Part shown: in pieces, positions 48,501 to 52,224 of the stretch | Layout: every line of letters starts with the position of its first letter | Position numbering within the stretch: position 1 is the first letter of the stretch | Assembly: GCA_009914755.4 (NCBI GenBank) | Contig: CP068257.2 | Span: 10,272,001 to 10,336,000, forward strand | From: the human T2T-CHM13v2.0 reference genome, Homo sapiens | Reading direction: 5' to 3' | Length of the DNA stretch: 64,000 nucleotides | The notes under the pieces: model-generated | Databases searched by the model: none | The model's input: only the letters and a program-made list of their open reading frames with translations | Told to the model about the DNA's origin: nothing | Made by a program: the position numbers and the translations under genes

Positions 48501-48777
48501 CTGCAAAAGGATATTTGTGAGCCCCTTGAGGCCCATGGTGTAACAGGAAATACCTTCACTTAAAAACTAGACAGAAGCATTCTGAGTAACTTCTTTGTGA
48601 TTTGTGATTTCATCTCACAGAGTTGAACCTTTCTTTTGATTGAGCAGTTTGGAAAACCTCTTTTTGCACAATCTGCAAAAGATATTTGGTGCACTTTGTG
48701 GACTATGGTGAAAAAGGAAATATCTTCATATAAAAACTAGAAAGAAACTTTCTGAGAAACTTCTTTGTGATGTGCAC
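45511..48777 (+). repeat. Alpha satellite, divergent monomers, + orientation
   Basis: 171-bp monomers of the same family as upstream. Confidence 0.96.
48752..48774. other. Candidate TSD (left copy) of L1 insertion 3
   Basis: ctgagaaacttctttgtgatgtg lies immediately left of the L1 poly-T tail. An identical 23-mer at 50356-50378 lies immediately right of the L1. Caveat: this motif is conserved in most alpha monomers. Confidence 0.45.
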
Positions 48778-49280
48778 TTTCTTTTTATTTTATTTTATTG
48801 TTATTATACTTTAAGTTTTAGGGTACATGTGCACAATGTGCAGGTTAGTTACATATGTATACATGTGCCACGCTGGTGTCCTGCACCCATTAACTCATCA
48901 TTTAGCATTAGGTATATCTCCTAATGCTATCCCTCCCCCCTCCCCACACCCCACAACAGTCCCCAGAGTGTGATGTGACCCTTGCTGTGTCCATGTGTTC
49001 TCATTGTTCAAATCTCACCTATGAGTGAGAACATGTGAGTGTTTGGTTTTTTGTCCTTGTGATAGTTTACTTAGAATGATGATTTCCTATTTCATCCATG
49101 TCCCTACAAAGGACATGAACTCATCATTTTTTATGGCTCCATAGTATTCCATAGTGTATATGTGCCACATTTTCTTAATCCAGTCTATCATTGTTGGACA
49201 TTTGGGTTGGTTCCAAGTCTTTGCTATTGTGAATAGTGCCACAATAAACATACACGTGCATGTGTCTTTATAGCAGCATG
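48778..49280 (-). mobile_element. L1 3' segment (3'UTR, ORF2 end and A-tail) of an internally inverted L1
   Basis: On the + strand, the poly-T-rich ctttttattttattttattgttattatac is followed by tttaagttttagggtacatgtgcacaatgtgcaggttagttacatatgtatacatgtgccac, the antisense L1 3' end. The - strand ORF 49087-49404 (...IDWIKKMWHIYTMEYYGAIKNDEFMSFVGTWMK) is the ORF2 C-terminus. Confidence 0.93.
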
Positions 49281-50354
49281 AAACCAACAAGAACAAAGAC
49301 ACAACATACCAGAATCTCTGGGACACATTCAAAGCAGTGTTTAGAGGGAAATTTATAGCACTAAATGCCCACAAGAGAAAGCAGGAAAGATCCAGAATTG
49401 ACACCCTAACATCACAATTAAAAGAACTAGAAAAGCAAGAGCAAACACATTCAAAAGCTAGCAGAAGGCAAGAAATAACTAAAATCAGAGCAGAACTGAA
49501 AGAAATAGAGACACAAAAAAACCCTTCAAAAAATTAATGAATCCAGGAGCTGGTTTTTTGAAAGGATCAACAAAATTGATAGACCGCTAGCAAGATTAAT
49601 AAAGAAGAAAAAAGAGAAGAATCAAATAAATGCAATAAAAAATGATAAAGGGGATATCACCACTGATCCCACAGAAATACAAACTACCATCAGAGAATAC
49701 TACAAACACCTCTATGCAAATAAACTAGAAAATCTAGAAGAAATGGATAAATTCTTCGACATATACACCCTCTCAAGACTAACCCAGGAAAAAGTTGAAT
49801 CTCTGAATAGACCAATAACAGGATCTGAAATTGTGGTAATAATCAATAGCTTACCAACCAAAAAGAGTCCAGGATCAGATGGATTCACAGCCGAATTCTA
49901 CCAGAGGTACAAGGAGGAACTGGTACCATTCCTTCTGAAACTATTCCAATCAATAGAAAAAGAGGGAATCCTCCCTAACTCATTTTATGAAGCCAGGATC
50001 ATCCTGATACCAAAGCCTGGCAGAGACACAACCAAAAAAGAGAATTTTAGACCAATATCCTTGATGAACATCGATGCAAAAATCCTCAATAAAATACTGG
50101 CAAACCGAATCCAGCAGCACATCCAAAAGCTTATCCACGATGAACAAGTGGGCTTCATCCCTGGGATGCAAGCCTGGTCCAATATATGCAAATCAATAAA
50201 TGTAATCCAGCATACAAACAGAACCAAAGACAAAAACCACATGATTATCTCAATAGATGCAGAAAAGGCCTTCACAAAATTCCACAACCCTTCATGCTAA
50301 AAACTCTCAATAAATTAGGTATTGATGGGACATATCTCAAAATAATAAGAGCTA
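49281..50354 (+). mobile_element. L1 ORF2 internal segment in opposite orientation to its own 3' end (inverted 5' portion, twin-priming-like)
   Basis: The + strand ORFs 49337-49537 ([61 protein letters not shown]) and 49743-50300 ([31 protein letters not shown]...[106 protein letters not shown]...[12 protein letters not shown]) match L1 ORF2p, running from the end of the endonuclease domain into the N-terminal RT domain. The junction with the - segment is at ...agcagcatga|aaccaacaag, sharing atga. It ends ...aaaataataagagcta, then alpha. Confidence 0.9.
49337..50300 (+). pseudogene. L1 ORF2 (RT-domain region) remnant, frame-interrupted
   Basis: Contains the RT motifs [13 protein letters not shown] and [11 protein letters not shown]. 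Not intact. Confidence 0.9.
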
Positions 50355-52224
50355 CCTGAGAAACTTCTTTGTGATGTGTGCATTCATCTCACAGAGTTGA
50401 ACCTTTCTTTTGATTGGGCAGTTTGGAAACAGTCTTTTTGTAGAATCTGCAAAGTGATATGTTTCAGTGGTTTGAATCCAATGGTGAAAAAGGAAATATC
50501 GAAAAATAAAATGTAGACAGCAGCTTTCTGAAGAACTTCTTTGTGATGTGTGCATTCATCTCACAGGGTTGAATTTCTTTCAATTCACCAGTTTGGAAAC
50601 AGTCTTTTTGTAGAACCTGCAAAGTGATATTGGTGAACGCTTTGATGCTTATGGTGCAAAAGGAAATATCTTCATATAAAAACTAGACTCATGTTTTCTG
50701 GGAAACTTCTTTGTGATGGGTGTATGCATCTCAAAGACTTGAATCTTTCTTTTGATTGAGCAGTTTGGAAACAGTCTTTTTGGAGAATCTGTAAATGGAT
50801 GTTTTTGAGTGGTTTGAGGCATGTGATGAAAAAGGAAATATCTTCATATAAAAACTAGACAGAAGCATTCTGAGAAACCACTTTGCGATGCATGCATTCA
50901 TCTCACAGAGTTTAATTTTCTTTCATTGAGCAGATAGGAAACAGTCTTTTTGTAGAATAAGCAAAGCGATATTTGTGAGCTTTCTGAGGCCTATTGTGAA
51001 AAAGGAAATATCCACAAATAAAATCTAGACAGAATCCTTCTGAGAAACTTCGTAGTGATGTGTGCATTCATCACACAGAATTGAACCTTTCTTTTGATTG
51101 AGCAGTTTGGAAACAGTCTTTTCATAGAATCTGCAAAGGAAAATTTGGGAACACTTTCAGGCTTATGGTGAAAAAAAGTGTCTTCACATAAAAACTATAC
51201 AGAAACATTCTGAGAAACTTCTTTTTGATGTGTGCATTCATCTCACACAGCTGAACTTTCATTTGAGTGAGCAGTTTGGAAACAGTCCTATTGTAGAATC
51301 TGCAAAGGGTTATTTATGAGCTGTTTGAGGCCTATGGTGAAAAAGGGAGTATCGACAAATAAAAACTAGACAGAAACTTTCTGAGAAACTTCTCTCTGAT
51401 ATGTGCATTCATCTCACAGAGTAGAAGCTTTCTTTGATTGAGCCGTTTGGAAACAGTCTTTTTGTAGAATCTGCAAAGGGTTATATATAGGCGGTTTCAG
51501 GTCTATGGTGAAAAAGGAAATATCTTCACATAAAAACTAGACAGAAGCTTTCTGAGAAAATTCTTTGAGATGTGCACATTCATCTCACAGATTTGAAGTA
51601 TTCTTTTCCTTGACCAGTTTGGATAGAGTCTTTTTGTAGAATCTGCTTTGCGATATATGTGAGCCCTTTGAAGCCTATGGTGAAAAAAGTAATATCTTCA
51701 CACAAAAACTAGACAGAAGCTTTCTGAGAAACTTCTTTGTGATGTGTGCATTCATCCCAAAAGTTGAACCTGTCTTTGGATTGAGCAGTTTGGAAACAGT
51801 CCTTTGTAGAATGTACAAAGGGATATTTGGGATCCCTTTTTGGCCTATGGTGAAAAAGGAAATGTCTTCAGATAAAAACTAGACAGAAGCATTCTGAGAA
51901 ACTTCTTTGCGATGTGTGCATTCACCTCACAGAGTTGAAGCTTTCTTTTGATTGAGTAGTTTGGAAACAGTCTTTTTGTAGAATCTGAAAAGGGTTATTT
52001 ATGAGTGGTTTGAGGTCTATGGTGAAAAAGGGAGTATCAACAAATAAAAAGTAGACAGAAACTTTCTGAGAAACTTCTCTGGATGTGTGCATTCATCTCA
52101 CAGAGTGGAAGCTTTCTTTGATTGAGCAGTTTTGTAACAGTCTTTTTGTAGAATTTGCAAAGGGATATATGTAGGCAGTTTGAGGTCTATGGTGAAAACG
52201 GAAATATCTTCACATAAAAACTAA
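50355..52224 (+). repeat. Alpha satellite, divergent monomers, + orientation (last + block)
   Basis: 171-bp monomers, ending ...ggaaatatcttcacataaaaacta at the inversion point. Confidence 0.96.
50356..50378. other. Candidate TSD (right copy) of L1 insertion 3
   Basis: ctgagaaacttctttgtgatgtg. Confidence 0.45.

What the first reader, a model, noticed from the sequence alone, without database searches (positions are those of the whole stretch)
48752..50378. L1 insertion 3 has a 5' inversion of the twin-priming type, a 23-bp candidate TSD and 4-bp junction microhomology
Left of the junction at about 49,280 the + strand carries the antisense L1 3' end. This is the tail at 48,778, then the 3'UTR and ORF2 C-terminus, roughly L1 nt 5.5-6.0 kb. 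Right of the junction the + strand carries sense ORF2, from the end of the endonuclease region through RT motifs [13 protein letters not shown] and ISIDAEKAF, roughly L1 nt 2.7-3.8 kb. The most 5' L1 sequence sits at the internal junction, and the two segments share atga there (agcagcATGAaaccaa). That is exactly the topology predicted by twin priming. About 1.7 kb of L1 lies between the two segments and is missing. Twin-primed elements usually have small gaps, so this gap is larger than expected. A later deletion, or two nested events, remain possible. The whole element is bracketed by identical 23-mers ctgagaaacttctttgtgatgtg, and the alpha monomer phase resumes correctly. That is consistent with one insertion event carrying a long TSD.
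Basis: partly seen in the sequence, partly recalled or inferred. Interest (0 to 1): 0.55.

Follow-up and report, generated by a model that had tools for sequence, protein, structure and literature searches.

The report
Inverted L1 insertion in alpha satellite
This is an old, dead LINE-1 copy with the common "5' inversion" structure, sitting in pericentromeric alpha satellite; it is ordinary, and the long "target site duplication" claimed for it is much weaker evidence than it looks, because the repeated 23-mer is the conserved core of every alpha monomer.

Summary
Window 48,782-50,357 holds two L1 pieces in opposite orientation. One is an antisense 3' end (ORF2 aa 1186 to the stop, the 3'UTR and a degenerate ~20-nt tail). 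The other is a sense piece covering ORF2 aa 275-632. The most 5' L1 sequence of each arm meets at 49,279-49,281, which is the twin-priming topology.

- L1 coordinates are about 2.81-3.89 kb and 5.54-6.0 kb.
- The missing segment is 1,655 nt.
- The junction microhomology is 3 nt (TGA), not 4.

Both arms carry similar private substitution loads (2.5% vs 2.9-3.4%), so nothing points to two insertions of different age.

The weak point is the TSD. The 23-mer is the alpha-monomer consensus core: 19 exact copies in the window, and 12% of other monomers carry it. The 7 nt between the left 23-mer and the tail (cactttc) also look like alpha and give a canonical TTTC/A nick site. The real overlap is therefore 30 nt at 27/30 identity, with all three mismatches in the last 7 nt. 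This fits a long TSD, but flanks from two different monomers that happen to be in phase cannot be excluded.

Verdict: a known kind of L1 insertion with an unusually large internal deletion. Low interest.

The parts
48752..48781 (+). Left copy of the duplicated alpha-satellite segment (candidate TSD). It consists of the 23-nt consensus core plus 7 nt 'cactttc', and abuts the T-rich tail directly. Its 3' end gives the inferred first-strand nick site 5'-TTTC/A.
   Evidence: 'cactttc' scores +3.1 bits against alpha monomer positions 24-30, and only about 1% of random 7-mers score as high.
48782..48802 (-). Degenerate A-rich tail of the L1, read as T-rich on the + strand (tttttattttattttattgtt). 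The boundary with the L1 body is approximate, within a few nt.
48803..49281 (-). Non-inverted arm, the poly(A)-primed cDNA. It covers L1 ORF2 nt 3,556 to the stop (aa 1186-1275, with one in-frame stop) plus the 3'UTR.
   Evidence: It is 96.2% identical to the nearest consensus-like reference, L007.
49279..49281 (.). Inversion junction. The 3-nt microhomology TGA is shared by the 5'-most ends of both arms.
49279..50357 (+). Inverted arm, the internally primed cDNA. It covers L1 ORF2 nt 822-1,900 (aa 275-632, RT fingers/palm motifs), with two frameshifts.
   Evidence: It is 96.5-96.9% identical to the references.
50356..50357 (.). 2-nt microhomology (CT) between L1 (GCTATCTATG) and the target (tCTGAGAAA), at the site where the second target end primed on the L1 RNA.
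50356..50385 (+). Right copy of the duplicated alpha segment: the same 23-mer, then 'tgcattc' (the alpha consensus). It matches the left copy at 27/30.

Best explanation
One L1 retrotransposition event into monomeric alpha satellite produced a 5'-truncated, 5'-inverted copy with a 1,655-nt internal deletion. The source was an intermediate-age primate L1PA subfamily, not L1HS.

Steps, each marked as shown or inferred:
1. (Inferred) L1 endonuclease nicked the + strand after 48,781, at 5'-TTTC/A in the alpha monomer.
2. (Shown as structure) That 3' end primed reverse transcription on the poly(A) tail. The first cDNA covers L1 from the 3' end back to ORF2 nt 3,556.
3. (Inferred) The other strand was cut 30 nt away, between 48,751 and 48,752. 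Its 3' end (...TTTCTCAG-3') annealed inside the same L1 RNA at ORF2 nt about 1,900 through 2 nt (CT). It then primed a second cDNA back to ORF2 nt 822.
4. (Inferred) The first cDNA stopped 1.65 kb short of the internal primer, so ORF2 nt 1,901-3,555 was never copied.
5. (Shown as a 3-nt overlap; the joining step is inferred) The two cDNA ends were joined at the TGA microhomology.
6. (Inferred) Fill-in of the 30-nt stagger gave the flanking direct repeat, now 27/30 identical.

The copy is dead, with frameshifts, stops and about 3% private substitutions. No function is suggested.
For: - Arm identities and orientations.
- Exact breakpoints and microhomologies, consistent across 19-22 reference L1s.
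- The inverted arm ends at ORF2 nt 1,900 directly against alpha, with no tail. TPRT alone cannot produce that structure, but twin priming predicts it.
- Private substitutions are 27/1080 in one arm and 14/476 in the other (Fisher p = 0.61). The same test gives 9.3% and 5.3% for the two other L1s in the window, so it can separate ages.
- One reference contig, L007, is the best match for the left arm (96.2%) and within 0.4% of the best match for the right arm (96.5%).
- The flanks overlap by 30 nt in alpha phase, flush with both L1 ends. The rebuilt monomer is 172 bp.
- The nick motif TTTC/A is one of the canonical forms listed in PMC12016303.
- 5' inversions occur in about 18-30% of L1 insertions (PMC12016303, PMC2912911). 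Internal deletions occur in 66% of inverted insertions and are explained by the first cDNA failing to reach the internal primer (bioRxiv 10.1101/2024.08.27.596794).
Against: - The gap of 1,655 nt is about 100 times the published median internal deletion (14.5 bp).
- A TSD of 30 nt is twice the usual 13-16 nt.
- All three mismatches of the 30-nt repeat lie in the 7 nt next to the tail. Under a uniform ~3% divergence per copy this has a probability of only about 0.6% (my calculation rates), whereas it is the typical difference between two different monomers.
- The repeated 23-mer is the alpha consensus core, so its identity carries little weight.
- No empty site, orthologous or paralogous, could be examined.
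- Subfamily assignment of the arms rests on consensus-like contaminant contigs that may be chimeric.
Confidence: 0.55

Rival explanations
1. Same single twin-primed insertion, but the apparent TSD is a by-product of alpha periodicity. The left and right flanks come from two different monomers that happen to be in phase. This could arise from a target-site deletion of 141 + 171n bp at integration, out-of-register annealing in the tandem array, or a later array rearrangement.
For: - 12% of monomers carry the exact 23-mer, and 15-19% of pairs of different monomers differ at 3 or fewer of these 30 positions.
- The observed pattern is 0 mismatches in the conserved 23 nt and 3 in the variable 7 nt. 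That is what different monomers typically show: a Hamming distance of 3 to 'cactttc' is the mode, at 79 of 140 monomers.
- It is improbable for a young duplicate.
- There is no HOR or local periodicity that would reveal a missing monomer.
Against: - It needs a phase coincidence: 1/171 for exactly this overlap, about 18% for any overlap that would read as a TSD.
- Large target deletions are a small minority of L1 insertions. Even short target-site deletions are only 7.4% of germline L1 insertions in PMC12016303.
- Standard twin priming needs the 3' overhang that also creates a TSD.
Confidence: 0.2
2. Twin-primed insertion that originally had the usual small gap. A later genomic deletion spanning the inversion junction then removed the 5' part of the non-inverted arm (about 1.65 kb) and the 5'-most part of the inverted arm.
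For: - It would restore the typical geometry, with the internal primer site adjacent to the end of the first cDNA.
- The 3-nt TGA microhomology is equally typical of microhomology-mediated deletion.
- The median internal deletion at integration is only 14.5 bp (bioRxiv 10.1101/2024.08.27.596794).
Against: - It needs an extra event that happens to straddle the inversion junction.
- Large distances between the two cDNA ends are common at integration: 54% exceed 20 bp (PMC12016303), and inversion-deletion extremes are described (PMC2837659).
- Nothing in the sequence distinguishes the two readings.
Confidence: 0.12
3. Two template RNAs ('dual priming' or a template switch). The poly(A)-primed cDNA and the internally primed cDNA were copied from two different L1 RNAs during one integration event.
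For: - It would make the 1.65-kb gap unremarkable.
- Such variants have been proposed (PMC2837659; bioRxiv 10.1101/2024.08.27.596794).
- The informative-site patterns of the two arms do not pick out the same references (Spearman rho 0.26, p = 0.45).
Against: - That test is underpowered and confounded by recurrent CpG changes.
- One reference (L007) fits both arms about equally.
- A single RNA in cis is the simpler model.
Confidence: 0.05
4. Two independent L1 insertions, one antisense 3' fragment and one sense ORF2 fragment, brought together by nesting and/or deletions.
For: - The window's alpha array has taken several L1 hits, including ins1 and ins2.
- The large gap and long TSD are atypical for a single event.
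Against: - The sense fragment lacks a 3' end and tail, so at least two further deletions with breakpoints at the observed junctions are needed.
- There is no TSD around the antisense fragment alone.
- The arms have the same private divergence, while the neighbouring L1s differ.
Confidence: 0.04
5. Post-insertional inversion. An ordinary antisense, 5'-truncated L1 (nt about 2.8-6.0 kb) later suffered an inversion of its 5' portion plus a deletion.
For: It would give the same arm order.
Against: One inversion breakpoint would have to coincide exactly with the L1/flank boundary at 50,357, and a 1.65-kb deletion would have to occur at the other. This is the classic argument that led to the twin-priming model (named from established knowledge: Ostertag & Kazazian 2001, cited in PMC12016303).
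Confidence: 0.03

Closest known systems
5'-inverted L1 insertions generated by twin priming (Ostertag & Kazazian 2001; surveyed in PMC2912911, PMC12016303, bioRxiv 10.1101/2024.08.27.596794)
   Same: - Two L1 segments in opposite orientation.
- A tail only on the 3' segment.
- The inverted segment lies 5' of the non-inverted one on the L1 map, with its 5'-most end at the internal junction.
- Microhomology at the inversion junction (3 nt) and at the 5' junction (2 nt).
- An internal deletion.
- A flanking direct repeat.
- A canonical TTTC/A nick motif.
   Different: - The internal deletion is 1,655 nt against a median of about 15 nt.
- The flanking repeat is 30 nt (27/30) against the usual 13-16 nt, and cannot be validated because it lies in a tandem repeat.
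Inversion-deletion variants of twin priming with a very short non-inverted part (Meyer et al. 2010, PMC2837659)
   Same: The first (poly(A)-primed) reverse transcription stops early, leaving a kilobase-scale internal deletion between the two cDNAs.
   Different: There the first cDNA never leaves the poly(A) tail. Here it copied about 480 nt of L1 body.
L1 insertions in divergent monomeric alpha satellite flanking centromeres (reviewed in PMC3966626)
   Same: The array is about 80% identical 171-bp monomers with no higher-order repeat. It is punctuated by L1 fragments of different ages and lies next to another satellite block.
   Different: Nothing. This is the expected context.
L1 insertion-mediated target-site deletion
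   Same: If the flanks are from different monomers, the event removed 141 + 171n bp of target.
   Different: Not shown. The flanks overlap in phase and are compatible with a duplication instead.

Membership tests
5'-inverted L1 (twin priming) | Two adjacent segments of one L1 in opposite orientations | tested here: met
   48,803-49,281 aligns antisense and 49,279-50,357 aligns sense to about 20 reference L1s and to PDB ORF2p.
5'-inverted L1 (twin priming) | Poly(A) tail on the non-inverted 3' segment, abutting the target; no tail on the inverted segment | tested here: met
   A degenerate A-rich tail of about 20 nt lies at 48,782-48,802. The inverted arm ends at ORF2 nt 1,900 directly against alpha.
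5'-inverted L1 (twin priming) | The inverted segment maps 5' of the non-inverted one, and its 5'-most base lies at the internal junction | tested here: met
   ORF2 nt 822 and nt 3,556 meet at 49,279-49,281.
5'-inverted L1 (twin priming) | Small deletion or duplication of L1 sequence at the inversion point | tested here: inconclusive
   A deletion is present, but it is 1,655 nt against a median of 14.5 bp (bioRxiv 10.1101/2024.08.27.596794). It lies in the tail of the known distribution, or reflects a later deletion.
5'-inverted L1 (twin priming) | Microhomology at the inversion junction and at the internal priming site | tested here: met
   TGA (3 nt) and CT (2 nt). Such short overlaps are also frequent by chance.
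5'-inverted L1 (twin priming) | Target site duplication flanking the whole element | tested here: inconclusive
   The 30-nt overlap is flush with both ends and matches at 27/30. The segment is the alpha consensus core, and 15-19% of pairs of different monomers match as well.
5'-inverted L1 (twin priming) | L1 endonuclease-type first-strand nick site (TTTT/A-like) | tested here: met
   The + strand reads ...CACTTTC followed by the tail, and the next target base is inferred as A from the right copy (50,386). This gives TTTC/A, a motif class listed in PMC12016303.
5'-inverted L1 (twin priming) | Both arms of the same subfamily and age (one RNA, one event) | tested here: met
   Private substitutions are 2.5% vs 2.9-3.4% (Fisher p = 0.61). 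L007 fits both arms at 96.2% and 96.5%. No curated subfamily library was available.
5'-inverted L1 (twin priming) | Pre-insertion empty site shows contiguous flanks | not testable with these tools
   There is no primate genome collection. No paralogous empty site exists in the window. The ORF look-up and the junction search found nothing.
Monomeric (non-HOR) alpha satellite | About 171-bp head-to-tail monomers, about 70-85% identical, with no higher-order period | tested here: met
   Monomer spacing is 169-173 bp. Mean identity is about 0.80 at every offset from 1 to 24, and the best long matches are about 81%.

The most novel reading that the evidence does not exclude
The tandem alpha array steered resolution of the integration. 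The second target end, or the repair intermediate, annealed out of register with a neighbouring monomer. The L1 would then have inserted with loss of 141 + 171n bp of array while leaving an in-phase pseudo-TSD. If this were general, apparent long TSDs of retrotransposons in satellites would often hide monomer loss, and L1 integration would be a source of array length change.
Probability: 0.1. Interest if true: 0.35.

Novelty: already known. Interest (0 to 1): 0.1.

Why it matters
It matters little in itself. 5'-inverted L1 copies make up a fifth to a third of all L1 insertions, and L1 fragments in divergent pericentromeric alpha satellite are routine.

Two modest points of use:
- It is a clean example of an inversion with a kilobase-scale internal deletion.
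- It is a caution for annotation. Inside tandem repeats, a perfect flanking repeat can be the repeat's own conserved core, so TSD length, and even TSD existence, cannot be read from one sequence.

With about 3% private divergence, the insertion could serve as an age marker for this alpha layer once orthologues are compared.

Tried and rejected
1. Paralogous empty site in the window. BLAST of the rebuilt empty site against the window gave only about 80-82% matches, the same as background. The monomer identity matrix shows no HOR.

2. Weak period-3 signal in the array as a ruler for a missing monomer. There is no local signal near the insertion, and pairs spanning the insertion are flat across offsets 2-7.

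3. A 23-bp TSD plus 7 nt of filler or tail. Rejected as less likely. 'cactttc' is alpha-like (about 1% of random 7-mers score as high). A nick after ...GATGTG would be a purine/pyrimidine junction unlike L1 EN sites, whereas TTTC/A is canonical.

4. Gapped alignment of 'cactttc' to 'tgcattc'. It needs three indels and is no better.

5. Subfamily typing by shared informative sites across 11 references. Inconclusive (rho 0.26, p = 0.45). The sites are dominated by recurrent CpG-type changes, and the reference contigs are consensus-like assemblies that may be chimeric.

6. Look-up of the 185-aa ORF in public assemblies, and a metagenome scan for the inversion-junction 23-mer. Neither found anything.

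7. The Ostertag & Kazazian 2001 paper itself (PMC311219) is not held in the library. Its content is cited through later papers.

8. L1PA subfamily naming from memory of 3'UTR diagnostic bases. The element lacks the L1HS 'ACA' state and has GCTAAATGATGAGTTAATGGG. I did not trust this enough to name a subfamily.
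Full report
**Context**

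The window has three parts.
- Bases 1 to about 35,638 are a (CATTC)n-type satellite with GC skew near -0.83.
- From about 35.64 to 52.22 kb there is alpha satellite on the + strand.
- From about 52.22 kb to the end there is alpha satellite on the - strand.

The alpha is monomeric. Monomer spacing is 169-173 bp, and mean pairwise identity is about 0.80 at every offset from 1 to 24. The longest internal matches are about 81% identical, so there is no higher-order repeat. Three L1 fragments interrupt the + array: ins1 at about 36.43-37.58 kb, ins2 at about 45.07-45.51 kb, and the element under review. L1 fragments in divergent monomeric alpha are the expected pericentromeric picture (PMC3966626).

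**The observation**

*Right arm.* Translation of 49,280-50,355 on the + strand, joined across two frameshifts, matches human L1 ORF2p (PDB 8uw3) residues 275-632 with E = 6e-207. The match includes [15 protein letters not shown] and [11 protein letters not shown].

*Left arm.* The minus strand of 48,960-49,281 matches ORF2p residues 1186-1267 (E = 7e-48), then runs through the stop region into the 3'UTR.

*DNA references.* I fetched 48 loci that encode relatives of the right arm from bacterial genome assemblies. These are human L1 contaminant contigs, several of 5-7 kb. BLASTN places 49,279-50,357 in sense and 48,78x-49,281 in antisense on the same references. On L001 these are nt 2,932-4,010 and 5,666-6,160, with the ORF2 ATG at 2,111.

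*L1 coordinates.* In ORF2 coordinates the arms are nt 822-1,900 and nt 3,556 to the end. The uncopied stretch is 1,655 nt in 19 of 22 references. With the ORF2 ATG near L1 nt 1,988-1,991 (from memory), the arms are about 2.81-3.89 kb and 5.54-6.0 kb.

*Junctions.* The arms overlap by TGA (49,279-49,281). Every reference has T, not A, before TGAAACC, so the microhomology is 3 nt, not 4. At the other end L1 reads GCTATCTATG and the window reads GCTACCTGAG. Two nt (CT, 50,356-50,357) are therefore shared between L1 and the target.

**One event or two?**

The reference contigs behave like subfamily consensus sequences. In leave-one-out tests most have 0% private differences.

| Element | Private differences | Rate |
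|---|---|---|
| Right arm | 27 of 1,080 | 2.5% |
| Left arm | 14 of 476, or 16 of 476 depending on the reference set | 2.9-3.4% |
| ins1 | — | 9.3% |
| ins2 | — | 5.3% |

The two arms do not differ (Fisher p = 0.61). The ins1 and ins2 values come from the same test, which shows the measure separates ages. One contig, L007, is the best match of the left arm (96.2%) and within 0.4% of the best for the right arm (96.5%). A finer test on informative sites was uninformative.

The structural argument is stronger. The sense arm has no 3' end or tail and stops at ORF2 nt 1,900 flush against alpha. Ordinary TPRT cannot make such an arm, but priming by the second target end inside the RNA does. Two independent insertions would need at least two further, precisely placed deletions. 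A post-insertional inversion would need a breakpoint exactly at the L1/flank boundary.

**The TSD**

The identical 23-mers are real, but the sequence is the consensus of the most conserved block of the alpha monomer.
- It occurs 19 times exactly in the window (13 on the + strand, 6 on the - strand).
- Including near copies, it occurs 86 times with 2 or fewer mismatches.
- 12% of the 140 other monomers carry it exactly.

The 7 nt between the left 23-mer and the tail, cactttc (48,775-48,781), resemble alpha positions 24-30. Variants such as TACTTTC, CACATTC and TGCTTTC exist in the window. The 7-mer scores +3.1 bits, a score reached by about 1% of random 7-mers. Read as target sequence, it puts the first-strand nick at 5'-TTTC/A, one of the canonical motif classes (PMC12016303). 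A nick after GATGTG would be atypical.

I therefore read the flanks as overlapping by 30 nt, flush with both ends of the element: left ctgagaaacttctttgtgatgtgCACTTTC, right ctgagaaacttctttgtgatgtgTGCATTC. That is 27 of 30.

Three mismatches in 30 nt are unremarkable for about 3% divergence per copy. All three falling within 7 nt is unlikely (about 0.6% by my Poisson estimate). The pattern '0 in the core, 3 in the variable 7' is the modal difference between two different monomers, and 15-19% of monomer pairs differ at 3 or fewer of the 30 positions.

The rebuilt monomer is 172 bp and of typical identity. That test is blind to the loss of whole monomers. No HOR, paralogous empty site or local periodicity is available to detect such a loss.

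My rough weighing uses TSD-length and target-deletion priors against these pattern likelihoods. It leaves a true long TSD somewhat more likely than in-phase flanks from different monomers, but not decisively. Local gene conversion of the right copy to the alpha consensus, or hypermutation next to the tail, would rescue the TSD reading. Neither was tested.

**Mechanism**

The best explanation is twin priming.
1. The + strand is nicked at TTTC/A.
2. Priming on the poly(A) tail gives a first cDNA that reaches only ORF2 nt 3,556.
3. The second strand is nicked 30 nt away.
4. Its 3' end (...CTCAG-3') pairs through CT inside the RNA and primes a second cDNA from nt about 1,900 back to nt 822.
5. The two cDNA ends join at TGA.
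6. Fill-in creates the flanking repeat.

[quoted passage not shown] Such deletions occur in 66% of inverted insertions, with a median of 14.5 bp (bioRxiv 10.1101/2024.08.27.596794). In another long-read set only 46% of inverted L1s have the two cDNA ends within 20 bp (PMC12016303). Variants where the first cDNA stops within the tail are documented (PMC2837659). A 1,655-nt gap is therefore unusual in size but not in kind. A later deletion across the junction, or use of two RNAs, cannot be excluded from this sequence.

**Age**

Private divergence of about 2.5-3.4%, and about 3.2-3.8% from the nearest consensus-like reference, implies an insertion in the order of 10-30 million years old at commonly used primate neutral rates (inference from memory). 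The 3'UTR lacks the L1HS-type states seen in contig L008. I could not name the L1PA subfamily reliably.

**Verdict**

The '23-bp perfect TSD' is overstated and unproven. The feature is a known kind of L1 insertion product in a known context. Interest is low.

Noticed in passing
window 1-35,638: About 35.6 kb of (CATTC)n-type satellite (HSat2/3-like) with extreme strand asymmetry: GC skew about -0.83, GC 0.46. It ends abruptly against the first alpha monomer near 35,638.
   Followed up: no
window ~52,223/52,224: The alpha-satellite array switches strand. Monomers are + oriented up to about 52,223 and - oriented from there to the end of the window, which marks an inversion breakpoint within the array.
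   Followed up: no
window ~36,430-37,583: L1 ins1 is an antisense 3' fragment of about 1.15 kb. It is much older than the element under review, with 9.3% private differences in the shared 3' region. A short imperfect flanking repeat (ttgaaccattctt / gtgaagcattctt) and an odd 'gggagctctggg' lie next to its tail.
   Followed up: partly
window ~45,065-45,512: L1 ins2 is a sense 3' fragment of about 0.4 kb with 5.3% private differences. Its tail is composite (…AATAAATTAAAAAACTAACTTTGAAAGAAATAAAAAAGTGTTGAAAATAAAAAAAAAG). This could be a short 3' transduction or a decayed tail.
   Followed up: no
loci L001-L048 (e.g. BMRF01000060.1 Actinomadura cremea, LZSC01000001.1 Mycobacterium sp., BMTN01000049.1 Streptomyces kurssanovii): Species-representative bacterial genome assemblies contain human L1 contigs of up to 6-7 kb. 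Most are consensus-like, with 0% private differences, as expected of collapsed assemblies of low-coverage human contamination. L023, L025 and L029 are only about 70-73% identical, so they probably come from non-primate host L1.
   Followed up: partly
window 46,710-46,871: One alpha monomer is 162 bp instead of 169-173 bp, which suggests a 9-bp deletion.
   Followed up: no
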